Shown: piece after piece, positions 3,489 through 39,613 of the stretch | How the letters are laid out: each line of letters starts with the position of its first letter | Numbering within the stretch: the first letter of the stretch is position 1 | Assembly: GCF_054482595.1 (NCBI RefSeq) | Contig: NZ_JBTHVH010000004.1 | From: a plasmid | Reading direction: 5' to 3' (one strand) | Length of the DNA: 64,000 nucleotides | Translations under genes and position numbers: made by a program | The notes under the pieces: generated by a model | The model's input: only the letters and a program-made list of their open reading frames with translations | Database searches by the model: none | What the model was told of the DNA's origin: nothing

Positions 3489-5129
3489 TTACCACAACAC
3501 CGCAATAGTGCGGTCATCGTGGTTCCCTGTGGAGAAAAAGTTAAGCCAGTCGCCTAACCTCTCAGGCGCAATACTGGCGTCTGTAAGGACAGGGATGAGC
3601 TCATCAAGGAGACGGGTCCATTTTTCGTCACTGCGAAGCCCGTTATCTGTCTCAAACAGAGGGTCTGATACGCCATCTGTCATGAGGATCAAGTGAGATA
3701 CATCATTCCATTTACCCACGCTGATGCGGCCGCTAAACGAGGGGTCTGCGATAATGCTCTGGTCAAGAAAGCGGGTTTGTCCTGCGTATTCTCCGCTATC
3801 GGGATTTCCCAGTATCCTGACTTTACCGGAAGGGCTGTATGCACCTATCGCACCATCACCAAGCCAGAATGCAGCCGCAAACAGCTCGTTATCAGTTCGT
3901 AGCGCTACAGTTGCCAGTAGGGTTGTTGAATAGGATTTCACAGGTTGTTCTGCACAAATGGCTTCGTTCTGGATACTGTTGACCGCGAGCGTAGCTGCCT
4001 GTTTAAAATGATGAAGCATGGCGTTTATGGTTGCCTGCTGATCGCTCCCTTCCCACGCCGTGATGTGCTGCTTTAGATGGACGCCTTTCAAACCACTGAG
4101 CTGATTGAAAAGGTAATCGCCAGCCGTTTGGACTGCAATCCGGGAGCCTTCCCGGGAATTTACCGCACTACCGGCCCCGTCTGCGACCAGCATGACAGAC
4201 CATCCTGTTTCCTGGCAGTGGTTGATATAGAAGTCGTCATCTCTGAAGCTCCCGGCATGCTCATGAGATCGTCCCCGGCGACTGGCGGCAGCAATACGTA
4301 TGTCACCCCTGACCAGGCCAGCAGCGTCCAGATGGGACTTAGGGTAGGAAGCGTCTGCTGGTGGCTCTACCACCTTCCACAGGCTTCTCGGATCGGGATT
4401 GACTATAAAAAGCTGTTTTGTTTCGCATTCGTCGTGCGAAGCGCATGACCAGAGTACTGAAAGCTCTATATCGCCGCTTTCGGTGGGTGTACCTGTCAGC
4501 AACTTATGCTCTTTGTCAAAGGTCAGGCCAATGTTCCTGGGAAAGACAACGTCCCTGACAGTAGCCTGCTGGCCCTCATCCAGAACTATAGCAACCGGCG
4601 AAGAGAAACGTTCGCCTGCGCGGGCGTTGGGAATAACTATTTTAGCTCTCGGGGGAACGGCAGGTGGCACAGCTAATCCGGCCCGCTGCTGGCCTGTCGG
4701 TATCTGCCCGGGTTTTAATACCAGGGAAGACAGGTTTTCGTCTTCCCTCTGTGCTGGTTTATCAAATTCGTAATAAGGCATCAGCTTCCAGAACGGAGGA
4801 TGAGGTTCATTTTCTGGCAGGGGTTGCAGTAATGGTGTATCGGTAGCGTCAATGCCCGGGTTATCAGCATCACTTACGACCGTTTGTTGCTGATCGGAAA
4901 GGCTGGATGCTGACGAGGGGGCGATCTCTGCGTCGTTATAACCTTCGCTAACCCGCGCAGATAAACCCTGTGCAAGGCTCTCAATCCGCTCTTTAAGCCG
5001 CATAATCTCTTCAGTAAGGGAAGGGTCGTGCGATAGAAGAAAAAGCCGCTCACCTTCTACAGGGTGGCCCAGCTCAGACAGCACTAAGCGGATAATCTTC
5101 TCTTCAAGTAAAACATTTTGCGACATCAA
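3489..5129 (-). CDS. PP2C-family Ser/Thr protein phosphatase with long N-terminal extension
   Basis: PP2C signatures 'MLVADGAGSAVNSREGS' and 'LILMTDGVSD'. Its stop overlaps the downstream kinase region; its start overlaps the upstream vWA stop (ATGA). Confidence 0.8.
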   Translation of the reverse strand: MMSQNVLLEEKIIRLVLSELGHPVEGERLFLLSHDPSLTEEIMRLKERIESLAQGLSARVSEGYNDAEIAPSSASSLSDQQQTVVSDADNPGIDATDTPLLQPLPENEPHPPFWKLMPYYEFDKPAQREDENLSSLVLKPGQIPTGQQRAGLAVPPAVPPRAKIVIPNARAGERFSSPVAIVLDEGQQATVRDVVFPRNIGLTFDKEHKLLTGTPTESGDIELSVLWSCASHDECETKQLFIVNPDPRSLWKVVEPPADASYPKSHLDAAGLVRGDIRIAAASRRGRSHEHAGSFRDDDFYINHCQETGWSVMLVADGAGSAVNSREGSRIAVQTAGDYLFNQLSGLKGVHLKQHITAWEGSDQQATINAMLHHFKQAATLAVNSIQNEAICAEQPVKSYSTTLLATVALRTDNELFAAAFWLGDGAIGAYSPSGKVRILGNPDSGEYAGQTRFLDQSIIADPSFSGRISVGKWNDVSHLILMTDGVSDPLFETDNGLRSDEKWTRLLDELIPVLTDASIAPERLGDWLNFFSTGNHDDRTIAVLW

Positions 5130-6166
5130 CCTCTCCCTCTGTTTACGTCGAAGTTAGTGTTTCCGCCATCATTGCTGAATGACAGACCTGTTTCACACCA
5201 CGGGCAGATCACGTCATCCGGGCCGTCAATGCACAGCAATTTTCCGCATGAGCACAGGGCAAACGCACTGGCATTACCGCAGTGAGGGCAACCCGGTACG
5301 CCATGCAGTTCGCTGGTGTTTACCTGCAAACCGGTAGCGGTGGCATCTGACCATGCAAAATAGTCTTCATCGATGGGATAGCATCCGGCAATATTAAAGC
5401 TGTTCAGGTTCAGGCTGAAATCGAGCCCGGAAATCCTTGCTGGTGGCCGTTCATACTTCATCAGATACGGACGACGGGTCTTGCTGCAACGGCCGGTAAG
5501 CGTAACGCAGTTTTCGTCGTACGCTTTTACTGGCTCGTCCTTGGCCAGCCGGACTATGTATTCAGTCTGGCTGAGCTCAGGTTGTTTGTCGTCTCCGACG
5601 CTGCGGCTGTGCGCCGTAACCGAGGCTGTGATCCATTTGATGAAGCGGGTAAAGTCCCCTTCCTGAGACTCGGTGAACAGCATGACATTCTCTGTCAGTT
5701 GCCGCAGGGTATTCAGGTCCGCTGACGGCCCCAGGCCAACGGCAATGAGATTCACTTTACTCGCGTAGTGATCCTTCCAGCGCTTCACTTCTGCGGTTGT
5801 GTCGTCAGTCGGACGTCCGTCGGTAAGGAGATACACGACGGGTTTCCAGTCGCCTTTAGCCTCATGAGTGGTTTTTCTGACCTGGGTATCAATTTGTACG
5901 GTCAGCTCACGCAATGCGGCCCCAAGGCTCGTACCGCCGCCAACGGGAAGGCGGGGAGGGTAGAACGAGGCAATTTCGTGAAGAGGTACAATCGTACGGG
6001 CTACACCGGCAAATGCGATTACCGAAACCCAGGCTGTTTCAAGTGCGTGTGGATCCTTTCTTAAATCTCCGATGATCATTTGCAGACCATCAGTCATTTT
6101 TTTCAGGTTTTCACCAATCATGGACTCTGAACAGTCCAGGACAAAAAACACGGGAAGGCGTCTCAT
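5126..6166 (-). CDS. vWA-domain protein (TerY-like) with C-terminal zinc ribbon
   Basis: MIDAS motif 'FFVLDCSESM' directly after the start 'MRRLPV' (ATG at 6166 with GAGGAAAA RBS); C-terminal 'CPHCGN..CSCG..CPWC'. The track ORF N-extension to 6370 is rejected. Confidence 0.75.
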   Translation of the reverse strand: MRRLPVFFVLDCSESMIGENLKKMTDGLQMIIGDLRKDPHALETAWVSVIAFAGVARTIVPLHEIASFYPPRLPVGGGTSLGAALRELTVQIDTQVRKTTHEAKGDWKPVVYLLTDGRPTDDTTAEVKRWKDHYASKVNLIAVGLGPSADLNTLRQLTENVMLFTESQEGDFTRFIKWITASVTAHSRSVGDDKQPELSQTEYIVRLAKDEPVKAYDENCVTLTGRCSKTRRPYLMKYERPPARISGLDFSLNLNSFNIAGCYPIDEDYFAWSDATATGLQVNTSELHGVPGCPHCGNASAFALCSCGKLLCIDGPDDVICPWCETGLSFSNDGGNTNFDVNRGRG

Positions 6167-6251
6167 AATTTTCCTCGTACGGCTGGTACGGCCAGCAGAA
6201 AACGTTGCTGTACAGAAAGGTGCTGCCCGGAAAGCAGCACCTTTCTGTCTG

Positions 6252-6893
6252 TCAGAGCACCAGCTGGATTTCTGGTGGAGGAGGGGGAAGGGTATCAGTT
6301 CCGTTATTGATCCCCGCGCTTGTGCTGCCGGAAGACACGCTGGCCGATACCCATTTAAAGAAACCTGCAAACGCGGTTGAATCTAGCGTCTCCAGAGACA
6401 CAACCTTATCGGTGAGCTGTTTTAAGTGCTCATGGCCTGCTTTAGGACCAACGGCGCAGGCAATGATGGATCCGAATCCCCGGCCGCGAATCGCTTTTAC
6501 CGCTTCACCGTACGCCAGGGCATCAGAAGGGGTTCCATCAGTCATCAGGAATACCAGAGGACGCCAGTCTCCTTTTGTATCACCATCTGAGCGACGTACA
6601 TCCCGTTCAACACACTGCATCAGACATTCAAGGGCAGCACCGGTGAACGTCCCGCCTGCGCTTGGCACAACGATGTCAGAAAACTGGAAGTCTTCCAGCG
6701 GCGTGAGAGGAATGAACTCACGCGCCTCATTGTCATAGGTGATAATGGAGATATGAACGCTTTCGAGGGCGTAGGGATCCTGGCGAAGAGCGCTAAGCAT
6801 CGCCTGAATTCCAACGTTAACGGAATGGATGGACTCACCGCGCATCGAGCCGGATGTGTCGATAACAAGGTAAACAGGCAGGCGGCGCATCAC
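6252..6893 (-). CDS. vWA-domain protein, TerY-like
   Basis: 'MMRRLPVYLVIDTSGSM' gives the DxSxS MIDAS motif at the N-terminus; 213 aa. Confidence 0.8.
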   Translation of the reverse strand: MMRRLPVYLVIDTSGSMRGESIHSVNVGIQAMLSALRQDPYALESVHISIITYDNEAREFIPLTPLEDFQFSDIVVPSAGGTFTGAALECLMQCVERDVRRSDGDTKGDWRPLVFLMTDGTPSDALAYGEAVKAIRGRGFGSIIACAVGPKAGHEHLKQLTDKVVSLETLDSTAFAGFFKWVSASVSSGSTSAGINNGTDTLPPPPPEIQLVL

Positions 6894-27461: not shown

Positions 27462-28281
27462 GGCACTGTTGCAAAGTTAGCGATGAGGCAGCCTTTTGTC
27501 TTATTCAAAGGCCTTACATTTCAAAAACTCTGCTTACCAGGCGCATTTCGCCCAGGGGATCACCATAATAAAATGCTGAGGCCTGGCCTTTGCGTAGTGC
27601 ACGCATCACCTCAATACCTTTGATGGTGGCGTAAGCCGTCTTCATGGATTTAAATCCCAGCGTGGCGCCGATTATCCGTTTCAGTTTGCCATGATCGCAT
27701 TCAATCACGTTGTTCCGGTACTTAATCTGTCGGTGTTCAACGTCAGACGGGCACCGGCCTTCGCGTTTGAGCAGAGCAAGCGCGCGACCATAGGCGGGCG
27801 CTTTATCCGTGTTGATGAATCGCGGGATCTGCCACTTCTTCACGTTGTTGAGGATTTTACCCAGAAACCGGTATGCAGCTTTGCTGTTACGACGGGAGGA
27901 GAGATAAAAATCGACAGTGCGGCCCCGGCTGTCGACGGCCCGGTACAGATACGCCCAGCGGCCATTGACCTTCACGTAGGTTTCATCCATGTGCCACGGG
28001 CAAAGATCGGAAGGGTTACGCCAGTACCAGCGCAGCCGTTTTTCCATTTCAGGCGCATAACGCTGAACCCAGCGGTAAATCGTGGAGTGATCGACATTCA
28101 CTCCGCGTTCAGCCAGCATCTCCTGCAGCTCACGGTAACTGATGCCGTATTTGCAGTACCAGCGTACGGCCCACAGAATGATGTCACGCTGAAAATGCCG
28201 GCCTTTGAATGGGTTCATGTGCAGCTCCATCAGCAAAAGGGGATGATAAGTTTATCACCACCGACTATTTGCAACAGTGCC
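27462..28281 (-). mobile_element. IS26 copy 1 (820 bp)
   Basis: 14-bp terminal inverted repeats GGCACTGTTGCAAA at both ends; internal transposase identical in all five copies; no target-site duplication. Confidence 0.95.
27514..28218 (-). CDS. tnpA: IS26 transposase (234 aa)
   Basis: 'MNPFKGRHFQRDIILWAVRWYCKYGISYRELQEM...'; the track ORF includes a 6-codon upstream extension. Confidence 0.95.
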   Translation of the reverse strand: MNPFKGRHFQRDIILWAVRWYCKYGISYRELQEMLAERGVNVDHSTIYRWVQRYAPEMEKRLRWYWRNPSDLCPWHMDETYVKVNGRWAYLYRAVDSRGRTVDFYLSSRRNSKAAYRFLGKILNNVKKWQIPRFINTDKAPAYGRALALLKREGRCPSDVEHRQIKYRNNVIECDHGKLKRIIGATLGFKSMKTAYATIKGIEVMRALRKGQASAFYYGDPLGEMRLVSRVFEM

Positions 28282-30367: not shown

Positions 30368-30729
30368 ATGCCGACCGAACAAGAGCTGATTTCGAGAACG
30401 CCTCAGCCAGCAACTCGCGCGAGCCTAGCAAGGCAAATGCGAGAGAACGGCCTTACGCTTGGTGGCACAGTTCTCGTCCACAGTTCGCTAAGCTCGCTCG
30501 GCTGGGTCGCGGGAGGGCCGGTCGCAGTGATTCAGGCCCTTCTGGATTGTGTTGGTCCCCAGGGCACGATTGTCATGCCCACGCACTCGGGTGATCTGAC
30601 TGATCCCGCAGATTGGAGATCGCCGCCCGTGCCTGCCGATTGGGTGCAGATCTTGCGCAACGAGATGCCGGCATACGATCCGCAAACCACACCAACTCGG
30701 AACATGGGTGCAGTGGCTGAATTGTTCCG
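30368..30729 (+). pseudogene. 3'-truncated AAC(3)-family acetyltransferase gene
   Basis: First 120 codons resemble the AAC(3) N-terminus ('GGTVLVHSSLSSLG...GTIVMPTHSGDLTDP'); the frame is cut by the IS6-family element at about 30730. Confidence 0.5.
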
Positions 30730-31619
30730 GGCGTGTCGCAAACACTTTTGGAGGCAGCTATCACCCAGCCAAGGCCGGTATTTTCATGCTTTGTTAACCT
30801 TTTGCAGTCCGAAGAGGCGCGCAAGCAAATCATTCTGGTCATTGACGGTCCAGCCGCCTGAAAAGCCAAAGCCCTTCCGCAGCCACAGCATCGCCTCGAA
30901 ACCCGCGATGGTTCGCCGCGCCGTGTTAAAGGATTGGAAACCGCCGATCTTCGGCATGTTCTTCTTCACCCGGAAATGGTCGCTCTCAATCCCCTGCTGG
31001 AGATGTTTGGTCACATAATGCACGGGATCGGGATGGAGAAGCCCATCATCAACCGACGTTTTGATCGTTGACGGGAAGGTGTTGGCCCCGTCCGTCCCAA
31101 TCCTGTTCGGCGACAACAAGGGTTCATCTTTAAGCATCTTTCGGAAGAACCGCTTGGCAGCGTCGAGATCGCGCTTAGCGGTCAGCAGGAAATCCACCGG
31201 ATTGCCATGCTTATCGATGGCTCGGTACAGATAGCGCCATTTGCCGCGGATCTTGACATAGGTCTCATCAATCCGGACCGAGCCGCAATGGGGTCGACGA
31301 AACTGCCGCAGCCGTTTCTCGATGACAGGTGCATAAGCCAATACCCAGCGGTTGATCGTGCTATGATCGACCTCGAAGCCCCGCTCGCGAAACATCTCTT
31401 CCAAGTCACGATAGCTGAGCGGGTAGCGCAAGTACCAGGCAACCGCCTGTACAATCAGCCAGGCCTCGAAATGCCTGCCCTTGAAATCATCCTTCGACTG
31501 GCGCTTCAGCTTTTCGGCAATGGTATTCAAAATCATCGGCTCGCTCCGCAATATCAGGAGCGGCAACTTCTCTCCCCATGGTCAACATCGAGTTAACCTG
31601 AAGAATTTGCGACAAGGCC
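30730..31619 (-). mobile_element. IS6-family insertion sequence, distinct from IS26 (about 890 bp)
   Basis: Imperfect terminal repeats GGCGTGTCGCAAA (left) and GGCCTTGTCGCAAA (right, reverse complement) flanking a 260-aa IS6-type transposase; exact IS name not determined. Confidence 0.7.
30784..31566 (-). CDS. IS6-family transposase (260 aa)
   Basis: Same domain layout as IS26 Tnp ('FKGRHFEAWLIVQAVAWYLRYPLSYRDLEEM...') but divergent in sequence. Confidence 0.8.
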   Translation of the reverse strand: MPLLILRSEPMILNTIAEKLKRQSKDDFKGRHFEAWLIVQAVAWYLRYPLSYRDLEEMFRERGFEVDHSTINRWVLAYAPVIEKRLRQFRRPHCGSVRIDETYVKIRGKWRYLYRAIDKHGNPVDFLLTAKRDLDAAKRFFRKMLKDEPLLSPNRIGTDGANTFPSTIKTSVDDGLLHPDPVHYVTKHLQQGIESDHFRVKKNMPKIGGFQSFNTARRTIAGFEAMLWLRKGFGFSGGWTVNDQNDLLARLFGLQKVNKA

Positions 31620-33121
31620 ATGCGTTCCGCTCCGGAGATGTCTGGCTTACTAGGTCCCGGCGCTATGGCGATCTGAAACACGCACTCGTTCCGGCACAAT
31701 CCATCGCGGAAGGCGGTCGTCTCGCTGTGCCATTGCGGCCGGAGGAATGGCTGGCAGACCGGCAAGCTCGCCTCGACATGCGGTTGCGCGAGCTTGGCCG
31801 TGCCGCTCGCGCAGGCACGATCCCGGGCGGGTCGATTGAAAACGGCGTTCTGCATATCGAGAAACTCGAAGCCGCCGCGCCGACAGGCGCCGAAGATCTG
31901 GTGCTCGATCTCTACAAGCAGATCCCGCCCACGCGCATCACCGATCTCCTGCTGGAGGTGGATGCGGCGACCGGCTTCACCGAAGCGTTCACCCATCTGC
32001 GCACAGGAGCACCCTGCGCTGACCGGATCGGGCTAATGAACGTTATCTTGGCGGAAGGGATCAACCTCGGCTTGCGCAAAATGGCGGATGCGACAAACAC
32101 CCACACCTTCTGGGAATTGATCCGCATTGGACGGTGGCATGTCGAGGGCGAAGCCTATGACCGGGCGCTGGCCATGGTGGTCGAGGCACAGGCAGCGTTA
32201 CCCATGGCCCGGTTCTGGGGCATGGGCACGTCGGCTTCGAGCGACGGACAGTTCTTCGTCGCTACAGAGCAAGGTGAGGCCATGAACCTGGTCAACGCGA
32301 AATATGGCAATACCCCGGGCCTGAAAGCCTATAGCCACGTCTCCGACCAATATGCGCCGTTCGCAACCCAGGTGATTCCTGCAACGGCAAGCGAAGCGCC
32401 TTACATCCTCGATGGCCTGCTGATGAACGATGCTGGACGCCATATCCGCGAGCAGTTCACCGACACGGGCGGCTTCACCGATCACGTCTTTGCCGCATGT
32501 GCCATTCTCGGCTACCGGTTCGCTCCGCGCATCCGCGACCTGCCATCCAAACGGCTCTACGCGTTCAATCCGTCGGCCGCCCCGGCGCACCTGCGAGCGT
32601 TGATCGGCGGAAAGGTCAACCAAGCCATGATCGAGCGCAATTGGCCCGACATCCTGCGCATCGCCGCCACCATTGCTGCCGGGACCGTCGCGCCAAGCCA
32701 GATTCTGCGGAAACTCGCCTCCTATCCGCGGCAGAACGAGCTCGCGACAGCCCTGCGGGAAGTCGGTCGCGTCGAGCGCACCCTGTTCATGATCGACTGG
32801 ATTCTGGATGCCGAACTCCAACGGCGTGCCCAGATCGGGCTCAACAAAGGCGAAGCTCATCATGCGCTGAAGCGGGCAATCAGCTTCCACCGCCGCGGTG
32901 AAATCCGCGACCGTTCCGCCGAAGGCCAGCATTACCGCATCGCCGGCATGAATCTGCTCGCCGCCATCATCATCTTCTGGAACACCATGAAGCTCGGCGA
33001 GGTCGTTGCAAACCAGAAACGCGATGGAAAGCTGCTATCGCCCGATCTCTTGGCCCATGTTTCGCCGCTCGGATGGGAACACATCAATCTCACCGGAGAA
33101 TATCGCTGGCCAAAGCCTTAG
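31620..33121 (+). pseudogene. tnpA: 5'-truncated Tn3-family transposase gene (Tn5393-type tnpA, C-terminal about 500 codons)
   Basis: Homologous by eye to the C-terminal half of the 995-aa TnpA at 50492..53479 ('...SPLGWEHINLTGEYRW'); the track ORF start lies inside the IS6 element so the 5' end is missing. Confidence 0.7.
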
Positions 33122-33153
33122 CGTAGGATTCCGCCCCCTCCCGCAAACGACCC
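33073..33153. repeat. Tn5393-type 81-bp terminal inverted repeat (tnpA end)
   Basis: Reverse complement reads 'GGGGTCGTTTGCGGGAGGGGGCGGAATCCTACGCTAAGGCTTTGGCCAGCGATATTCTCCGG...', matching the recalled Tn5393 IR; overlaps the tnpA 3' end. Confidence 0.6.
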
Positions 33154-33154
33154 C

Positions 33155-34066
33155 GTGATGACCCTGCAGGCATCCCCTGAGACCCGGTTAATGCGCGCCG
33201 AGGTGCAGCGGCATTATCCGCACATCTGGCAGGAGCTGGAGGGGCTGGCGCAGGGACTGGAGGCCACTGTTGATCAGGTCTTTGCCTGGAACTGCCGTGG
33301 CGATCTGGTGCGCTCAACGTCGGATGGCTGTACGACGGTGGCCGGGGTAAACGCCGCAGGCGAGCGGATTATCGCGCATAATGAAGACGGTTTTCCTCAG
33401 TTACGGGATGAATGCTTGCTGGCTACCATTACTCCGAGTCGCGGTCTGAGCTTTACGAGTTTTGCCTATCCGGGGTCGATTTGCGGCCACACCTTTGCGG
33501 TAAATGAAAAAGGTATCGTTAACACGGTGAATAACATCCGTGCAGTGTATCGTCCGCAGGGATTACCGCGTCAGATCCTGGCTCGCGCCTCGCTGAATGC
33601 GAACACCCTCGACGAGGCCATCACTATACTTACCGGCCAGCCGCGATCCGGGGCGTTTCACCATACGCTCGGGCAGCTGGGCGATGCGCGGCTGTTCAGC
33701 GTTGAGGCCACCGGTCAAGGCTGTTCCGTTCTACCCCTGACGACGGTAACCGGGCATGCCAACCATCTGGTGCATGCGGCACTGGCTGGCGTTGAGCAGA
33801 TCGTTACCGACAGTTCAGCGTCGCGGCAGTTACGCCTCGTGCAGTGGCGGGAAACGCAACCTCCGTTTGACGCCGCGGCGGCAAAAACCATTCTCTCAGA
33901 TACCCATGACGCAGAACTGCCAATTTACCGGCTGGCTGCCGACGATCCGGATGAGGAGAACACCCTCGCCACGGCAGTTTTCACCCTCGATGCCAACCAC
34001 GTCAGGTGGCAAATTTTCGACATTAACCGCGACGATGCTAAATTTCATGGAGAAGTGCGTGGGTGA
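33155..34066 (+). CDS. Hypothetical Ntn-hydrolase / peptidase C45-like protein (303 aa)
   Basis: ORF with 'DGCTT' candidate nucleophile context; family assignment is tentative. Confidence 0.45.
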   Translation: MMTLQASPETRLMRAEVQRHYPHIWQELEGLAQGLEATVDQVFAWNCRGDLVRSTSDGCTTVAGVNAAGERIIAHNEDGFPQLRDECLLATITPSRGLSFTSFAYPGSICGHTFAVNEKGIVNTVNNIRAVYRPQGLPRQILARASLNANTLDEAITILTGQPRSGAFHHTLGQLGDARLFSVEATGQGCSVLPLTTVTGHANHLVHAALAGVEQIVTDSSASRQLRLVQWRETQPPFDAAAAKTILSDTHDAELPIYRLAADDPDEENTLATAVFTLDANHVRWQIFDINRDDAKFHGEVRG

Positions 34067-34219
34067 AATAGCCGGTCGTCAGTCATAAAGGGCAGGGGAG
34101 TACCGTTGGCCCGGCGTTCGATAGTACCGTCCGGATACTGCCAGATATCGGCGTCCAGGGAGATGTCCTGAAGCGCGGTGTCCGGAATTTCAGGTTTGTG
34201 TCTCTACAAAGACTAACTA

Positions 34220-35035
34220 TCAGAAAAACTCATCGAGCATCAAATGAAACTGCAATTTATTCATATCAGGATTATCAATACCATATTTTTGAAAAAGCCG
34301 TTTCTGTAATGAAGGAGAAAATTCACCGAGGCAGTTCCATAGGATGGCAAGATCCTGGTATCGGTCTGCGATTCCGACTCGTCCAACATCAATACAACCT
34401 ATTAATTTCCCCTCGTCAAAAATAAGGTTATCAAGTGAGAAATCACCATGAGTGACGACTGAATCCGGTGAGAATGGCAAAAGCTTATGCATTTCTTTCC
34501 AGACTTGTTCAACAGGCCAGCCATTACGCTCGTCATCAAAATCACTCGCATCAACCAAACCGTTATTCATTCGTGATTGCGCCTGAGCGAGACGAAATAC
34601 GCGATCGCTGTTAAAAGGACAATTACTAACAGGAATCGAATGCAACCGGCGCAGGAACGCTGCCAGCGCATCAACAATATTTTCACCTGAATCAGGATAT
34701 TCTTCTAATACCTGGAATGCTGTTTTCCCGGGGAGCGCAGTGGTGAGTAACCATGCATCATCAGGAGTACGGATAAAATGCTTGATGGTCGGAAGAGGCA
34801 TAAATGCCGTCAGCCAGTTTAGTCTGACCATCTCATCTGTAACATCATTGGCAACGCTACCTTTGCCATGTTTCAGAAACAACTCTGGCGCATCGGGCTT
34901 CCCATACAATCGATAGATTGTCGCACCTGATTGCCCGACATTATCGCGAGCCCATTTATACCCATATAAATCAGCATCCAGGTTGGAATTTAATCGCGGC
35001 CTCGAGCAAGACGTTTCCCGTTGAATATGGCTCAT
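34220..35035 (-). CDS. aph(3')-Ia: Aminoglycoside 3'-phosphotransferase APH(3')-Ia (kanamycin/neomycin resistance)
   Basis: 'MSHIQRETSCSRPRLNSNLDADLYGYKWARDNVGQSGATIYRLYGKPDAPELFLKHGKG...' matches recalled Tn903 AphA1. Confidence 0.9.
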   Translation of the reverse strand: MSHIQRETSCSRPRLNSNLDADLYGYKWARDNVGQSGATIYRLYGKPDAPELFLKHGKGSVANDVTDEMVRLNWLTAFMPLPTIKHFIRTPDDAWLLTTALPGKTAFQVLEEYPDSGENIVDALAAFLRRLHSIPVSNCPFNSDRVFRLAQAQSRMNNGLVDASDFDDERNGWPVEQVWKEMHKLLPFSPDSVVTHGDFSLDNLIFDEGKLIGCIDVGRVGIADRYQDLAILWNCLGEFSPSLQKRLFQKYGIDNPDMNKLQFHLMLDEFF

Positions 35036-35139
35036 AACACCCCTTGTATTACTGTTTATGTAAGCAGACAGTTTTATTGTTCATGATGATATATTTTTAT
35101 CTTGTGCAATGTAACATCAGAGATTTTGAGACACAACGT

Positions 35140-35264
35140 GGATTTGTTGAATAAATCGAACTTTTGCTGAGTTGAAGGATCAGATCACGCATCTTCCCGA
35201 CAACGCAGACCGTTCCGTGGCAAAGCAAAAGTTCAAAATCACCAACTGGCCCACCTACAATAAA
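35140..35264. mobile_element. IS903 end remnant (about 125 bp) upstream of aph(3')-Ia
   Basis: 'GGATTTGTTGAATAAATCGAACTTTTGCTGAGTTGAAGGATCAGATCACGC...' resembles the IS903 terminal repeat and adjoining sequence of Tn903; cut by the Tn5393 IR. Confidence 0.5.
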
Positions 35265-35345
35265 GGGGTCGTTTGCGGGAGAGGGCGAAATCCTACGCTA
35301 AGGCTTTGGCCAACGATATTCTCCGGTAAGATTGATGTGTTCCCA
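35265..35345. repeat. Tn5393-type 81-bp terminal inverted repeat (strB end)
   Basis: 'GGGGTCGTTTGCGGGAGAGGGCGAAATCCTACGCTAAGGCTTTGGCCAACGATATTCTCCGG...' immediately downstream of strB. Confidence 0.6.
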
Positions 35346-35370
35346 GGGGATAGGAGAAGTCGCTTGATAT

Positions 35371-36207
35371 CTAGTATGACGTCTGTCGCACCTGCTTGAT
35401 CGCGGCCGCGATAGCTAGATCGCGTTGCTCCTCTTCTCCATCCGCGTTCCAAGCTGCGGAAAGGCACCCATAAGCGTACGCCTGGTCGAGCAGGCGACGC
35501 GGATCGACGTCCAGCGCACGAGAGAATGCGTCCGCCATCTGTGCAATGCGTCTAGGATCGAGACAAAGGTCGTCTCTGTCAGCCGGATCGTAGAACATAT
35601 TGGCGGCGCCAAAGCCCACTTCACCGACCAGACCGACGGGATCTATCACCAGCCAGCCGCGACTGGAGAACATGATGTTTTCATGATGCAGATCGCCATG
35701 TAGCCCACGCAGTTCCGAGGCATTGCTCATCATTTGATCGGCTATAATCGCCGCGTGGACGTAGTCAGTTTGACAACCTGCGTTTTGATCATCGCGCGCC
35801 CGCTGAAACAAAGCTGCAAAGCGATCCCGGATCGGGAGAAGGGCAGAAGGCAGGGGTTCCTCAGATGCGGCATACAGCTTCGCCATTAGTTCCGCTGCAA
35901 TTTCGGTCGCCTGGTAGTCGCCGTGCTCGGCAACGATGTGAGAGAGCATTCGCTCCCCGGCATATTCGAGCAACATCAGATTGTTCTCACGACCGAGCAA
36001 CCGGACTGCTCCCCTCCCATTGCGCCATACCAGATAGTCGGCCCCGCGCAGTTCATCAGCAATGTCTTCTATAGGTTTCAATTCCTTGACGATTGCAGGA
36101 GTCCCGTCTGGCAATGAAACTTTCCAAACGAGGCTGGAAAAGGTGTCCGCAATGAGAACAGGTTGCGAAACGTGCCAATGAGCAGGAAAAACAGGCGGCA
36201 TGAACAT
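35371..36207 (-). CDS. strB: Streptomycin phosphotransferase APH(6)-Id
   Basis: 'MFMPPVFPAHWHVSQPVLIADTFSSLVWKVSLPDGTPAIVK...' matches recalled StrB; its ATG shares one base with the strA stop. Confidence 0.9.
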   Translation of the reverse strand: MFMPPVFPAHWHVSQPVLIADTFSSLVWKVSLPDGTPAIVKELKPIEDIADELRGADYLVWRNGRGAVRLLGRENNLMLLEYAGERMLSHIVAEHGDYQATEIAAELMAKLYAASEEPLPSALLPIRDRFAALFQRARDDQNAGCQTDYVHAAIIADQMMSNASELRGLHGDLHHENIMFSSRGWLVIDPVGLVGEVGFGAANMFYDPADRDDLCLDPRRIAQMADAFSRALDVDPRRLLDQAYAYGCLSAAWNADGEEEQRDLAIAAAIKQVRQTSY

Positions 36208-37010
36208 CAACCCCAAGTCAGAGGGTCCAATCGCAGATAGAAGGCAAGGCGTTCGCGGTCGGGGGCTTCGATCCCCAATACATTGAATAGGACAGCGAAG
36301 GCGCGCTCTGCTTCATCTGGCGCTGCCCAGTTCTCTTCGGCGTTAGCAATCATGAGTGCCAAATCGGCATAGCGATCTGCTGTTCCGAGCCGCCCAAGGT
36401 CGATCAGACCCGTGCATTGAAGAGTTTTAGGGTCCACCATGAAGTTCGGCATGCAGGGATCACCATGGCAAACAACCATATCGGTGCGCTCTTGGTCGAG
36501 CCGCACCGGTAGCTCTCGTTCGACACGAGCCAAAAGATCGAGCTGCGGCGTACTCTTGTCCTCGTCCGGTAAGAAGTCGGGATTGACGGCATTGCGGGAC
36601 ACCACATCAACGGCGCGTCCGAACATTCGCGACAGCCTGCGCTCAAACGGACATTGATCAACCGATAGGCTGTGAACAGCGCCAAGTTGCTGCCCCATTG
36701 ACGGCCACGCTTTGAGCAAATCCGCTCCAGACAGATCAGCCGCCGGTACTCCCGGAATTGCCGTTATCACCAAGCATGCACCCTCCTGTTCCTCCTGCCA
36801 GTTGATCACCTCGGGGCAAGCCACACCTCGACCTTTGAGCCAAATGAGGCGGTCACGCTCTCCAGCGAGCTCACCGCGGCGGGAAGCAGGTGCGATTTTC
36901 GCGAAGGCATGCCCGTCACCACGTCGAAAAACAAAATCACCAGATTCTCCGCCTCTGACAGGCAACCAGTCAGAATGCGATTCACCAAAAAAAATATTAG
37001 TTCGATTCAA
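36207..37010 (-). CDS. strA: Streptomycin phosphotransferase APH(3'')-Ib
   Basis: '(M/L)NRTNIFFGESHSDWLPVRGGESGDFVFRRGDGHAFAKIAP...' matches recalled StrA; TTG start at 37010 with GAAGGA RBS. Confidence 0.9.
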   Translation of the reverse strand: MNRTNIFFGESHSDWLPVRGGESGDFVFRRGDGHAFAKIAPASRRGELAGERDRLIWLKGRGVACPEVINWQEEQEGACLVITAIPGVPAADLSGADLLKAWPSMGQQLGAVHSLSVDQCPFERRLSRMFGRAVDVVSRNAVNPDFLPDEDKSTPQLDLLARVERELPVRLDQERTDMVVCHGDPCMPNFMVDPKTLQCTGLIDLGRLGTADRYADLALMIANAEENWAAPDEAERAFAVLFNVLGIEAPDRERLAFYLRLDPLTWG

Positions 37011-37302
37011 TGGAGGTTCCTTCAGTTTTCTGATGAAGCGCGGAGGTGGCTCAACCTGCGAAAAGAAACGAGTTGCTATGGACTTGCACCGGTTGTGTTC
37101 CGGTCTATCTCTCATTTTAAGCGGCTTTTTTCTCAAATGCCACCGGCGATTTCCAGCCGAGTGTTGAATGTCTTCGGCGTGGATTATAAAAGCCATTTAC
37201 CCATATAATGCGCCTACTTATCAGCCTTTGGGACGTTGGGACGGTATTTTTCACTATATACCCCCAAGTTTTTAGACATGAAAAAAGGGTAATGACTCCA
37301 AC

Positions 37303-37806
37303 TTATTGATAGTGTTTTATGTTCAGATAATGCCCGATGACTTTGTCATGCAGCTCCACCGATTTTGAGAACGACAGCGACTTCCGTCCCAGCCGTGCCA
37401 GGTGCTGCCTCAGATTCAGGTTATGCCGCTCAATTCGCTGCGTATATCGCTTGCTGATTACGTGCAGCTTTCCCTTCAGGCGGGATTCATACAGCGGCCA
37501 GCCATCCGTCATCCATATCACCACGTCAAAGGGTGACAGCAGGCTCATAAGACGCCCCAGCGTCGCCATAGTGCGTTCACCGAATACGTGCGCAACAACC
37601 GTCTTCCGGAGCCTGTCATACGCGTAAAACAGCCAGCGCTGGCGCGATTTAGCCCCGACGTATCCCCACTGTTCGTCCATTTCCGCGCAGACGATGACGT
37701 CACTGCCCGGCTGTATGCGCGAGGTTACCGACTGCGGCCTGAGTTTTTTAAGTGACGTAAAATCGTGTTGAGGCCAACGCCCATAATGCGGGCTGTTGCC
37801 CGGCAT
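37303..37806 (-). CDS. insB: IS1 InsB (expressed as InsAB' by frameshift)
   Basis: 167-aa ORF overlapping insA in the -1 frame, as in IS1. Confidence 0.85.
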
Positions 37807-38000
37807 CCAACGCCATTCATGGCCATATCAATGATTTTCTGGTGCGTACCGGGTTGAGAAGCGGTGTAAGTGAACTGCAGTTGCCATGTTTTACGGCAGT
37901 GAGAGCAGAGATAGCGCTGATGTCCGGCGGTGCTTTTGCCGTTACGCACCACCCCGTCAGTAGCTGAACAGGAGGGACAGCTGATAGAAACAGAAGCCAC
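37725..38000 (-). CDS. insA: IS1 InsA
   Basis: '[43 protein letters not shown]...'. Confidence 0.9.
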
Positions 38001-38055
38001 TGGAGCACCTCAAAAACACCATCATACACTAAATCAGTAAGTTGGCAGCATCACC

Positions 38056-38234
38056 CGACGCACTTTGCGCCGAATAAATACCTGTGACGGAAGATCACTT
38101 CGCAGAATAAATAAATCCTGGTGTCCCTGTTGATACCGGGAAGCCCTGGGCCAACTTTTGGCGAAAATGAGACGTTGATCGGCACGTAAGAGGTTCCAAC
38201 TTTCACCATAATGAAATAAGATCACTACCGGGCG
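38056..38234. other. Tn9 remnant: catA1 upstream/promoter region without the cat gene
   Basis: 'CGACGCACTTTGCGCCGAATAAATACCTGTGACGGAAGATCACTTCGCAG...TTTCACCATAATGAAATAAGATCACTACCGGGCG' is the recalled sequence between IS1 and cat in Tn9/pACYC184-type DNA. Confidence 0.65.
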
Positions 38235-38793: not shown

Positions 38794-39613
38794 GGCACTG
38801 TTGCAAAGTTAGCGATGAGGCAGCCTTTTGTCTTATTCAAAGGCCTTACATTTCAAAAACTCTGCTTACCAGGCGCATTTCGCCCAGGGGATCACCATAA
38901 TAAAATGCTGAGGCCTGGCCTTTGCGTAGTGCACGCATCACCTCAATACCTTTGATGGTGGCGTAAGCCGTCTTCATGGATTTAAATCCCAGCGTGGCGC
39001 CGATTATCCGTTTCAGTTTGCCATGATCGCATTCAATCACGTTGTTCCGGTACTTAATCTGTCGGTGTTCAACGTCAGACGGGCACCGGCCTTCGCGTTT
39101 GAGCAGAGCAAGCGCGCGACCATAGGCGGGCGCTTTATCCGTGTTGATGAATCGCGGGATCTGCCACTTCTTCACGTTGTTGAGGATTTTACCCAGAAAC
39201 CGGTATGCAGCTTTGCTGTTACGACGGGAGGAGAGATAAAAATCGACAGTGCGGCCCCGGCTGTCGACGGCCCGGTACAGATACGCCCAGCGGCCATTGA
39301 CCTTCACGTAGGTTTCATCCATGTGCCACGGGCAAAGATCGGAAGGGTTACGCCAGTACCAGCGCAGCCGTTTTTCCATTTCAGGCGCATAACGCTGAAC
39401 CCAGCGGTAAATCGTGGAGTGATCGACATTCACTCCGCGTTCAGCCAGCATCTCCTGCAGCTCACGGTAACTGATGCCGTATTTGCAGTACCAGCGTACG
39501 GCCCACAGAATGATGTCACGCTGAAAATGCCGGCCTTTGAATGGGTTCATGTGCAGCTCCATCAGCAAAAGGGGATGATAAGTTTATCACCACCGACTAT
39601 TTGCAACAGTGCC
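38794..39613 (-). mobile_element. IS26 copy 2
   Basis: Identical terminal repeats and transposase; boundary set by the fixed 52/45-bp offsets from the tnp ORF; no target-site duplication. Confidence 0.95.
38846..39550 (-). CDS. tnpA: IS26 transposase
   Basis: Identical to copy 1. Confidence 0.95.
   Translation of the reverse strand: MNPFKGRHFQRDIILWAVRWYCKYGISYRELQEMLAERGVNVDHSTIYRWVQRYAPEMEKRLRWYWRNPSDLCPWHMDETYVKVNGRWAYLYRAVDSRGRTVDFYLSSRRNSKAAYRFLGKILNNVKKWQIPRFINTDKAPAYGRALALLKREGRCPSDVEHRQIKYRNNVIECDHGKLKRIIGATLGFKSMKTAYATIKGIEVMRALRKGQASAFYYGDPLGEMRLVSRVFEM

What the first reader, a model, noticed from the sequence alone, without database searches (positions are those of the whole stretch)
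31620..35345. Two Tn5393-type terminal repeats face each other across a 2.1-kb insert
The tnpA-end 81-bp repeat (about 33073..33153) and the strB-end repeat (about 35265..35345) point toward one another, enclosing the C45-like gene, aph(3')-Ia and an IS903 end remnant. That arrangement is not a simple Tn5393 insertion; it implies two partial copies or an inversion/recombination, with the aphA1 segment captured between transposon ends.
Basis: partly seen in the sequence, partly recalled or inferred. Interest (0 to 1): 0.5.

Follow-up and report, generated by a model that had tools for sequence, protein, structure and literature searches.

The report
Two broken Tn5393 copies flanking aphA1
Two intact 81-bp ends of the streptomycin-resistance transposon Tn5393 really do face each other here, because two truncated copies of that transposon sit side by side around a 2.1-kb kanamycin-resistance fragment from Klebsiella michiganensis; this is an ordinary scar seen in many resistance plasmids.

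Summary
IRL (33074-33154, holding the tnpA stop codon) and IRR (35265-35345, next to strB) are base-for-base the two ends of complete Tn5393 copies. Their tips abut a 2,110-bp block X (33155-35264).

X is not a passenger. It is chromosomal-type Klebsiella michiganensis DNA. It holds a C45 peptidase gene lacking its first 38 codons, aphA1 with its promoter, and the first 125 nt of an IS903B-like element. Both edges of X are cut exactly at Tn5393 tips, with different 5-bp flanks (GTGAT, ATAAA).

Both Tn5393 pieces keep the orientation they have in an intact element, so this is not an inversion. Longer relatives (p14408_M1, pCFS3292-2) show two copies that overlap in content, one with IS1133 and one without.

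In the window both copies are dead. ISEc59 removed the 5' half of tnpA. tnpR and res are gone, and IS1133, IS1, IS10 and IS26 debris follows strA.

The identical 6.5-kb arrangement occurs in at least 81 PLSDB plasmids, and every plasmid copy of this C45 fragment that I found begins at the same IRL junction. The order of events that built the tandem cannot be resolved.

Verdict: real, well explained, known kind, low interest.

The parts
27462..28281 (-). IS26, left boundary of the IS26-bounded resistance segment, followed by aac(3)-IVa and aph(4)-Ia
   Evidence: 14-bp IS26 terminal repeats at 27462 and 28281. It is a 100% direct repeat of 38794-39613. Annotation comes from the colinear pTB-nb4.
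30729..31619 (-). IS6-family element (ISEc59 according to the literature) that truncates the left Tn5393 copy; the left end coordinate is approximate
   Evidence: NCBIfam transpos_IS6, E 2.7e-75. Ends read. Venturini et al. 2019 (PMC6906374) describe Tn5393 truncated by ISEc59 next to aph(4)-Ia/aac(3)-IV/IS26.
31617..33121 (+). 3' half of Tn5393 tnpA (left copy); the N-terminal half is missing
   Evidence: blastn to complete Tn5393 gives 31617-33154 = reference 5168-6705 with 1 mismatch. NCBIfam transpos_Tn3 covers profile positions 450-954 of 954.
33074..33154 (-). Tn5393 IRL (tnpA-end 81-bp terminal repeat); tip at 33154, abutting X
   Evidence: Identical to IRL of L005, L006 and L050. The tnpA stop codon lies inside it.
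33155..34066 (+). C45 family peptidase gene lacking its first 38 codons (left end of block X)
   Evidence: 98.2% identical to K. michiganensis DSM 25444 (L007). The native ORF starts 114 bp upstream of the ATG at 33158, 111 bp before the cut at 33155. NCBIfam C45_proenzyme covers profile 42-312 of 313.
34220..35035 (-). aphA1 / aph(3')-Ia, kanamycin-neomycin resistance
   Evidence: NCBIfam APH_3p_Ia, 643.6 bits against a cut-off of 625. AMRFinder annotation gives 100%.
35036..35139 (-). native aphA1 upstream region with candidate promoter TTGTGT-17-TACATT (35131-35136 and 35108-35113, minus strand)
   Evidence: Read from the sequence. The promoter motif is the one proposed by Moran & Hall 2025.
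35140..35264 (+). first 125 nt of an IS903B-like element (right end of block X), cut by Tn5393 IRR
   Evidence: 124 of 125 identical to the intact IS end in p101EVA-1 (L050). PGAP annotates a partial IS5/IS1182 transposase here.
35265..35345 (+). Tn5393 IRR (strB-end 81-bp terminal repeat); tip at 35265, abutting X
   Evidence: Identical to IRR of L005, L006 and L050.
35371..36207 (-). strB / aph(6)-Id (one-residue variant), right Tn5393 copy
   Evidence: NCBIfam APH_6, 384 bits. 99.64% to aph(6)-Id.
36207..37010 (-). strA / aph(3'')-Ib, right Tn5393 copy
   Evidence: NCBIfam APH_3pp_Ib, 637.7 bits.
37011..37199 (.). end of the right copy: 68 bp upstream of strA, running up to the tnpR stop codon at the IS1133 insertion site, then the first ~121 bp of IS1133; homology to Tn5393 stops at 37199
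   Evidence: blastn to the reference copies and to L046/L050. IS1133 end and CTA target duplication read.
37284..38051 (-). IS1A, followed by a short Tn9-like stretch and a truncated IS10
   Evidence: IS1 end read at 37284. Annotation of the colinear pTB-nb4.
38794..39613 (-). IS26, right boundary, in direct orientation with 27462-28281

Best explanation
The two facing repeats are the inner ends of two directly oriented Tn5393 copies that once lay in tandem around a 2.1-kb block X. X was never an insert. It is a contiguous piece of Klebsiella michiganensis-type DNA (C45 peptidase gene, aphA1 and its promoter) carrying an IS903B-like element at its aphA1-proximal end.

Tn5393 transposase made both edges of X, because each edge sits exactly at a repeat tip. 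One cut lies inside the C45 gene (flank GTGAT). The other lies at nt 125 of the IS (flank ATAAA). These are two different target sites, so two joining events occurred.

Inferred, not shown: the two events were either two insertions, or one insertion followed by an intramolecular replicative event. The second route would give a Tn5393+X circle that re-entered a Tn5393 copy by homologous recombination.

A tandem of this kind is normally collapsed by the TnpR resolvase acting at two res sites. It survived because IS elements removed one res/tnpR early.

In this window further erosion has killed both copies:
- ISEc59 removed everything left of the 3' half of tnpA.
- The right copy ends about 121 bp into IS1133.
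- No tnpR or res remains.

What still works is the resistance cargo: aphA1 from its native promoter, and strA-strB. The whole segment now moves only as part of an IS26-bounded mosaic on an IncHI2 plasmid.
For: - Repeat identity: both repeats are identical to the ends of complete Tn5393 copies.
- Orientation: both pieces are oriented as in an intact element.
- Two copies: window 31617-37199 is colinear (99.95%, no gaps) with p14408_M1. There the left copy runs from 36 bp upstream of strA through a complete tnpR to IRL without IS1133. The right copy runs from IRR through IS1133 into tnpR, so a 376-bp segment is present twice. pCFS3292-2 has a complete tnpR on the left and 558 bp of tnpR on the right.
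- Nature of X: it is colinear with K. michiganensis-type chromosome at about 98%. The native C45 ORF continues 38 codons upstream of the cut. The IS remnant continues in intact IS903B-like copies.
- Controls: true simple insertions show 5-bp duplications, TGCTC in L006 and TTTAT in L050. The pair here has GTGAT versus ATAAA.
- IncX1 plasmids keep a 23-bp IRL tip to the right of X in direct orientation. The simplest reading is a deletion inside a once-complete right copy.
- Literature: Moran & Hall 2025 show that aphA1 with the adjacent C45 peptidase gene is native to K. michiganensis. Venturini et al. 2019 describe the ISEc59 truncation of Tn5393.
Against: - No outer end of either copy survives next to the missing halves of C45 or of the IS. 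The predicted junctions were not found in PLSDB, in 5,426 complete E. coli genomes, or as exact strings in JGI metagenomes. The metagenome scans had no positive control.
- The full tandem inside an aphA1 unit is therefore inferred, and the order and mechanism of the two joining events cannot be resolved.
- Tn5393 copies have clearly recombined with one another. The right copy carries IS1133 at two different sites in different lineages, yet the X junctions are identical. The overlap seen in the longer relatives could in principle have been added later by recombination.
- Tn3-family target immunity (general knowledge, not tested for Tn5393) makes two nearby insertions on one molecule unlikely.
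Confidence: 0.8

Rival explanations
1. A single Tn5393 copy, circularly permuted. A non-replicating circle or small replicon made of one Tn5393 plus X was opened inside tnpR/IS1133 by an IS26 and inserted as an IS26-bounded unit. What look like two partial copies are then the two halves of one copy.
For: In the window and in p12690-2 the two pieces do not overlap. They cover reference 5168-6705 plus 1-1960, and 3553-6705 plus 1-1928. IS26 abuts the left piece in p12690-2. The outer junctions expected for two insertions were never found.
Against: p14408_M1, pSE08-00436-1 and pCFS3292-2 have pieces that overlap (tnpR present twice), and only one of the two copies carries IS1133. The breakpoints on the two sides never coincide and involve different IS elements. 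The IncX1 form keeps a second IRL tip to the right of X.
Confidence: 0.12
2. An inversion, mediated by IS26 or by the transposon itself, of part of one Tn5393 brought its two ends face to face.
For: Inversions are common in IS26-rich regions, and the window holds five IS26 copies.
Against: tnpA(+) and strB/strA(-) keep the same relative orientation as in intact Tn5393. An inversion would flip one relative to the other. Intramolecular Tn3-type inversion would place two ends of the same kind facing each other, not IRL and IRR. No reverse-complement flanks are seen.
Confidence: 0.02
3. X is a mobile element that inserted between abutted Tn5393 ends, for example at a tandem-dimer junction.
For: X sits exactly between the two tips.
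Against: The ends of X are internal points of a chromosomal gene (C45 codon 38) and of an IS (nt 125). X has no terminal repeats of its own and no target duplication. Tn3-family elements are not known to form abutted-end junctions (general knowledge).
Confidence: 0.03
4. Assembly artefact or chimera.
For: Repeat-rich regions are prone to misassembly.
Against: The identical 6.5-kb arrangement occurs in at least 81 independently sequenced complete plasmids from several genera and countries.
Confidence: 0.01

Closest known systems
Tn5393 (Tn3-family streptomycin-resistance transposon; variants with and without IS1133)
   Same: The 81-bp IRL and IRR, the tnpA 3' half, strA-strB and the IS1133 end are 99.9-100% identical to complete copies.
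   Different: Neither copy is complete. There is no tnpR or res and no tnpA N-terminal half. The two ends belong to different copies, point at each other and share no 5-bp duplication.
Tn5393e (Tn5393 carrying the IS26-aphA1 transposon Tn6023 in the tnpR-strA region; Cain & Hall 2011) and the similar region of pTP10
   Same: aphA1 is physically linked to Tn5393 strAB. The aphA1 flanking sequence is the same type.
   Different: There aphA1 is an IS26-bounded insert inside one Tn5393. Here it lies outside, between two copies, with Tn5393 tips as both boundaries and no IS26 at the junctions.
TnaphA1-pIE545 and Tn903 (IS903-group compound transposons carrying aphA1 captured from K. michiganensis; Moran & Hall 2025)
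   Same: Same chromosomal passenger type: aphA1, its TTGTGT-17-TACATT promoter and the adjacent C45 peptidase gene. An IS903-group element lies upstream of aphA1.
   Different: Only 125 nt of one IS remain. The IS end lies 104 bp from the aphA1 start, against 116 bp reported for IS102 in pIE545. The C45 gene is cut by Tn5393, and glnQ and the second IS are absent.
Unresolved Tn3-family cointegrate, or tandem copies flanking intervening DNA
   Same: Two directly repeated copies have IRL of one and IRR of the other facing across the intervening DNA. The structure is stable only when one res or tnpR is lost, and in every relative examined the right copy lacks res.
   Different: The intervening DNA is not a whole donor replicon, and its two flanks are not a matching duplication. 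A single classical cointegrate event does not explain it.
IS26-bounded mosaic resistance regions of IncHI2 ST3-type plasmids (IS26-aac(3)-IV-aph(4)-Ia-ISEc59-truncated Tn5393)
   Same: The left boundary of the finding is exactly this published configuration.
   Different: The published descriptions I could read do not discuss the IRL-X-IRR core.

Membership tests
Tn5393 (Tn3 family) | 81-bp terminal inverted repeats with a GGGGTCGTTTGCGGGAG tip | tested here: met
   Both repeats are identical over 81 bp to IRL and IRR of complete copies in L005, L006 and L050.
Tn5393 (Tn3 family) | tnpA ends inside IRL; strA-strB read towards IRR | tested here: met
   The tnpA stop at 33119-33121 lies within 33074-33154. 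The strB stop lies 25 bp from IRR.
Tn5393 (Tn3 family) | One element bounded by IRL and IRR with tips outward and a 5-bp target duplication | tested here: not met
   The tips face inward across X. The flanks are GTGAT and ATAAA. Controls L006 (TGCTC) and L050 (TTTAT) show true duplications.
Tn5393 (Tn3 family) | Complete transposition module (full tnpA, tnpR, res) | tested here: not met
   tnpA covers only profile positions 450-954 of 954. No tnpR or res sequence is present in 31617-37199.
IS903-group aphA1 compound transposon (Tn903 / TnaphA1-pIE545 type) | aphA1-containing K. michiganensis passenger segment | tested here: met
   X is colinear at about 98% with K. michiganensis-type contigs L007 and L008. 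The origin is established by Moran & Hall 2025.
IS903-group aphA1 compound transposon (Tn903 / TnaphA1-pIE545 type) | Two complete IS903-group copies bounding the passenger, with a 9-bp duplication | tested here: not met
   Only 125 nt of one IS are present. None of the best-ranked PLSDB records carrying the C45 3' end, aphA1 and the IS extends past the IRR junction.
Tandem / cointegrate-like pair of Tn3-family copies | Two copies in direct orientation with overlapping content | tested here: met
   Not visible in the window itself. Met in the colinear relatives L046, L045 and L053.
Tandem / cointegrate-like pair of Tn3-family copies | Outer ends of both copies with their own target duplications | tested here: inconclusive
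   The outer ends are deleted in every relative fetched. Predicted junctions are absent from PLSDB, E. coli genomes and JGI metagenomes. Only a 23-bp outer IRL tip survives, in IncX1 plasmids.
IS26 pseudo-compound transposon (wider context) | Directly oriented IS26 copies bounding the segment | tested here: met
   IS26 at 27462-28281 and 38794-39613 are in the same orientation.
IS26 pseudo-compound transposon (wider context) | 8-bp target duplication flanking the pair | tested here: not met
   The flanks are ggaagatt and acttgacc.

The most novel reading that the evidence does not exclude
The unit Tn5393-X-Tn5393 (or a Tn5393+X circle derived from it) was itself the vehicle that carried aphA1 plus the C45 fragment out of a K. 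michiganensis context and into unrelated plasmids. It would have moved either as a compound Tn3-family transposon using the outermost ends, or by recombination into resident Tn5393 copies. That would be a further, Tn5393-linked route of aphA1 spread beside the IS903-group and IS26 routes listed by Moran & Hall 2025.

Points in favour:
- All 146 PLSDB records carrying this K. michiganensis-type C45 sequence begin it at the same IRL junction. Every best-ranked record carrying the C45 3' end with aphA1 and the IS remnant ends at the same IRR junction.
- The outer junctions in C45 and in the IS are never seen.
- The unit sits in at least three unrelated outer contexts: the IncHI2 mosaic, IncF with a Tn10-bearing Tn5393, and the IncX1 backbone at TTCTA.
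- The interior of the right copy differs between lineages while the junctions stay identical.
Probability: 0.2. Interest if true: 0.4.

Novelty: already known. Interest (0 to 1): 0.18.

Why it matters
The value is mostly practical. The IRL|GTGAT-C45 and IS903B|IRR junctions are single-origin markers. They let a widespread aphA1-strAB module be traced across IncHI2, IncF and IncX1 plasmids of E. coli, Salmonella, Klebsiella and Shigella from animals, food and people.

The finding also adds one more context to the recently established K. michiganensis origin of aphA1. Here the native C45 neighbour is retained but cut by Tn5393. It is also a clear example of how a tandem of Tn3-family copies can be frozen once IS elements remove res and tnpR.

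It reveals no new mechanism, gene or element type.

Tried and rejected
1. Outer junctions expected for two simple insertions into one aphA1 unit (C45 upstream part-GTGAT|IRR, and IRL|ATAAA-rest of IS903B). I searched with chimeric queries in PLSDB and in complete E. coli genomes, and as exact strings in JGI metagenomes. None was found. The only near hit turned out to be a separate simple insertion of Tn5393 at another site of an IS903B-like element, with TSD TTTAT.

2. An intact C45 5' part on plasmids. It was absent. The only full-length matches are native homologues at 87-91% in Phytobacter and a Plautia symbiont.

3. An intact IS903B next to aphA1 together with the C45 3' end. None was found: the best-ranked records all stop at the IRR junction.

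4. pTP10 of Corynebacterium striatum looked like an old example. It is instead an IS26-aphA1-IS26 insertion inside one Tn5393, of the Tn5393e type.

5. The Serratia plasmid CP048042 holds a single Tn5393 with a group II intron and no X.

6. An apparent 25-bp deletion upstream of strA was an alignment effect caused by IS1133 sitting at a different site.

7. Five full-text literature searches ran; two further attempts were rejected because of term syntax. They found the component descriptions but no paper that discusses the IRL-X-IRR core.

8. The genome-collection scan found the native locus. It gave no chromosome carrying Tn5393 in the C45 gene.
Full report
OBSERVATION

The region was read directly and scanned for repeats. 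One long inverted pair stands out, with arms 33061-33159 and 35260-35358 and 2,100 nt between them. They match each other at 77 of 81 positions.

This imperfection is the normal state of Tn5393. The left repeat is identical to IRL, and the right repeat to IRR, of complete Tn5393 copies fetched from three plasmids:
- pSE74-1357 (L005)
- pEclE4-1 (L006, flanked by the 5-bp duplication TGCTC)
- p101EVA-1 (L050, flanked by TTTAT)

. The tnpA frame stops inside the left repeat, and strB lies just inside the right one.

It is not an assembly artefact. Window 31000-37500 is 100% identical in at least 81 PLSDB plasmids, mostly IncHI2 plasmids of 230-290 kb from E. coli, Salmonella and Klebsiella. It is also present in 50 of 5,426 complete E. 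coli genomes.

LAYOUT

The window is colinear with the IncHI2 plasmid pTB-nb4. The order of features is:
- IS26, 27462-28281
- aac(3)-IVa
- aph(4)-Ia
- an IS6-family element ending at 31619
- the 3' half of tnpA, 31617-33121
- IRL
- block X, 33155-35264
- IRR
- strB
- strA
- 68 bp of Tn5393 sequence upstream of strA, then about 121 bp of IS1133, ending at 37199
- IS1A
- a truncated IS10
- IS26, 38794-39613

NCBIfam scans support these assignments. The tnpA fragment covers Tn3-transposase profile positions 450-954 of 954. The middle ORF is a C45 proenzyme covering profile positions 42-312 of 313. APH(3')-Ia, APH(6)-I and APH(3'')-Ib score above their cut-offs.

The junction of Tn5393 with the IS6-family element next to aph(4)-Ia/aac(3)-IV/IS26 is a published configuration. 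In that description the element is named ISEc59 (Venturini et al. 2019, PMC6906374).

WHAT BLOCK X IS

Moran and Hall (2025, PMC12670165) showed that aphA1 originated in Klebsiella michiganensis, and that in one chromosomal configuration a C45 peptidase gene lies next to it.

A scan of species-representative genomes found the native locus:
- X matches the K. michiganensis type strain at 98.2% over the C45 gene.
- X matches a second contig (L008) at about 98% over C45 plus aphA1, with one 55-bp indel.

In all native loci the C45 ORF starts 38 codons upstream of the point where the window sequence begins. Tn5393 IRL therefore sits inside the gene, and the next bases are GTGAT.

At the other side, 35140-35264 is the first 125 nt of an IS903B-like element (124 of 125 identical to the intact end in L050). 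It lies 104 bp upstream of the aphA1 start codon. That 104-bp spacer contains the TTGTGT-17-TACATT promoter proposed by Moran and Hall. IRR cuts this IS after ...CTACAATAAA.

Both edges of X are therefore internal points of other features, and both lie exactly at Tn5393 tips. X is flanking or target DNA lying outside both transposon pieces. It is not a passenger.

TWO COPIES, NOT AN INVERSION

In intact Tn5393, drawn in the window's orientation, the order is IRR, strB(-), strA(-), tnpR(-), res, tnpA(+), IRL. The window has tnpA(+)-IRL, then X, then IRR-strB(-)-strA(-). Both pieces keep their normal orientation, so the order is a circular permutation. This excludes an inversion.

To separate two copies from one permuted copy, I looked for longer relatives.
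- Window 31617-37199 is colinear with p14408_M1 (L046) at 99.95% without gaps.
- In L046 the left copy extends from 36 bp upstream of strA through a complete tnpR, res and tnpA to IRL, and has no IS1133.
- In L046 the right copy extends from IRR through strB, strA and a complete IS1133 into tnpR, where IS26 cuts it.
- A 376-bp segment is therefore present in both copies.
- pSE08-00436-1 has the same left copy.
- pCFS3292-2 has a complete tnpR on the left and 558 bp of tnpR on the right.

The window form is a more eroded derivative of such a tandem. In all these relatives only the left copy retains res. This explains why resolvase has not collapsed the tandem. That last step is an inference from the known biology of Tn3-family resolution.

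HOW THE TANDEM AROSE

This part is inferred. The two flanks differ (GTGAT versus ATAAA), so the two inner junctions come from two target sites 2.1 kb apart. Two routes fit.
- Route (a): two insertions occurred, on one molecule or on two molecules later joined by recombination within X.
- Route (b): one insertion was followed by an intramolecular replicative event of the deletion type. This yields a Tn5393+X circle, which then re-entered a Tn5393 copy by homologous recombination.

The two routes cannot be told apart from the flanks of X.

I looked for the outer junctions predicted if both copies sat in one aphA1 unit. Neither was found in PLSDB, in complete E. coli genomes, or as exact strings in JGI metagenomes (no positive control was possible).

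Conversely, both inner junctions appear fixed:
- All 146 PLSDB records with this K. michiganensis-type C45 sequence begin at the IRL junction.
- All the best-ranked records carrying the C45 3' end, aphA1 and the IS end at the IRR junction.

Every mobile copy sampled therefore descends from one ancestral IRL-X-IRR unit.

SPREAD OF THE UNIT

The unit occurs in several outer contexts:
- IncHI2 mosaics.
- IncF plasmids, where the right copy carries Tn10 inserted in IS1133, as in the R64-type variant listed in a review.
- IncX1 plasmids.

The right copy carries IS1133 at two different sites in different lineages. The target duplication is CCA in one and CTA in the other, 25 bp apart, while the X junctions are identical. 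Homologous exchange between Tn5393 variants has therefore reshuffled the interiors of the copies.

The same fact weakens any argument about origin that rests on IS1133 presence or absence. It also leaves a small chance that the overlap in the long relatives is secondary.

In IncX1 plasmids the order is: 151 bp of tnpA tail plus IRL, then X shortened to 55 nt of the IS, then a 23-bp IRL tip in direct orientation, then backbone starting TTCTA. A sister plasmid has only the 151 bp directly joined to TTCTA. Empty IncX1 backbones have 407 bp between the two flanks.

The simplest reading is that a complete right copy once ended at TTCTA in the IncX1 backbone. The two present forms would then arise by deletions.

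WHAT IT DOES NOW

Nothing in 31617-37199 can transpose by itself. The tnpA fragment lacks its N-terminal half, tnpR and res are absent, and the two intact ends point at each other.

The working parts are aphA1 with its native promoter, and strA-strB.

The segment lies between directly oriented IS26 copies without an 8-bp duplication. This is typical of IS26-built mosaics, and IS26 together with the conjugative IncHI2 plasmid is now the vehicle.

COMPARISON WITH KNOWN ELEMENTS AND VERDICT

All components are known elements at 98-100% identity, and the kind of structure is familiar: eroded tandem transposon copies in a resistance mosaic.

It differs from Tn5393e and from pTP10. In those, an IS26-bounded aphA1 unit sits inside one Tn5393.

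It differs from TnaphA1-pIE545. There IS102 lies 116 bp from aphA1, and the C45 gene and glnQ are intact.

I found no paper in the searchable library that discusses the IRL-X-IRR core itself.

Interest is low. The main value is as a lineage marker and as one more aphA1 context.

Noticed in passing
L002 6850-9056 (pYUYZPE67-4, IncX1) and L051 550-702 (p40EC-5): IncX1 plasmids carry a short form: 151 bp of tnpA tail plus IRL, then the C45-aphA1 block with only about 55 nt of the IS, then a 23-bp IRL tip in direct orientation, then backbone starting TTCTA. The junction of IS to tip shares a CGC microhomology. A sister plasmid has the 151 bp joined directly to TTCTA with no aphA1 block. Empty IncX1 backbones have 407 bp between the two flanks.
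   Followed up: partly
L050 7188-13892 (p101EVA-1): A complete Tn5393 with IS1133 is inserted in an IS903B-like element at a different site and in the opposite orientation, with a clean 5-bp duplication TTTAT. It is an independent Tn5393 hit on the same IS family.
   Followed up: yes
window 37075-37090; L005, L003, L046, L050: IS1133 occupies two different sites in Tn5393, 25 bp apart. The target duplication is CCA in pSE74-1357/p12690-2 and CTA in the window, p14408_M1 and p101EVA-1. The terminal bases also differ slightly (TGGTCT versus TGGACT). So there are two distinct IS1133-bearing Tn5393 variants of the same total length, 6,705 bp.
   Followed up: partly
L005 2448 and 9152 (pSE74-1357): This complete Tn5393 has no 5-bp duplication (CAGTA before IRR, TAACC after IRL). 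The methyltransferase/endonuclease genes on its IRL side also lie beyond the truncated Tn10 to the right of the aphA1 unit in p12690-2 (L052). This suggests a shared earlier context.
   Followed up: no
window 37200-37283: 84 bp between the IS1133 remnant and IS1A matched none of the fetched loci in the blastn comparisons that covered this stretch (L046, L045, L050, L005 and L003). The colinear pSCE516-1 (L001) carries the same stretch. Its origin is unknown.
   Followed up: no
window 38052-38234: The stretch between IS1A and the truncated IS10 reads like the catA1 promoter region of Tn9 (recognised from memory only). It would be a Tn9 remnant without the cat gene.
   Followed up: no
window 34111-34215: About 105 bp between the C45 stop and the aphA1 stop match E. 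coli chromosomes at 94.3% (hits H64-H68), in stretches with no annotated feature. This may be a conserved gene remnant next to the native aphA1 locus.
   Followed up: no
L007 (K. michiganensis DSM 25444) around 6050: The type strain has the C45 gene, but homology to the window stops at 34206, just before the aphA1 stop. Within the 10.9-kb locus fetched, no aphA1 homology was found. This fits the distinct chromosomal configurations reported by Moran & Hall.
   Followed up: partly
L008, L018, L044: Contigs labelled Acinetobacter idrijaensis, uncultured Collinsella and Anaerobiospirillum carry this Klebsiella-type C45 and/or aphA1 DNA at 95.5% (L008), 100% (L018) and 99% (L044) overall. These are probably contamination, mis-binning or plasmid-borne copies.
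   Followed up: no
window 27462-49808: Five IS26 copies lie within 22 kb (27462, 38794, 41717, 45034, 48989). The pair bounding the finding is in direct orientation without an 8-bp duplication.
   Followed up: partly
window 35371-36207: strB encodes a one-residue variant of APH(6)-Id (WP_049195390.1, 99.64%) in this IncHI2 lineage. The longer relatives carry the standard allele.
   Followed up: no
one search hits H126-H148: Many plasmid records match the IRL query at 80 of 81 positions over an isolated 81-bp stretch. I guessed, without checking, that these are repeats next to strB in RSF1010-type sul2-strAB regions, which would then be closer to IRL than the IRR of complete Tn5393 is (77 of 81).
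   Followed up: no
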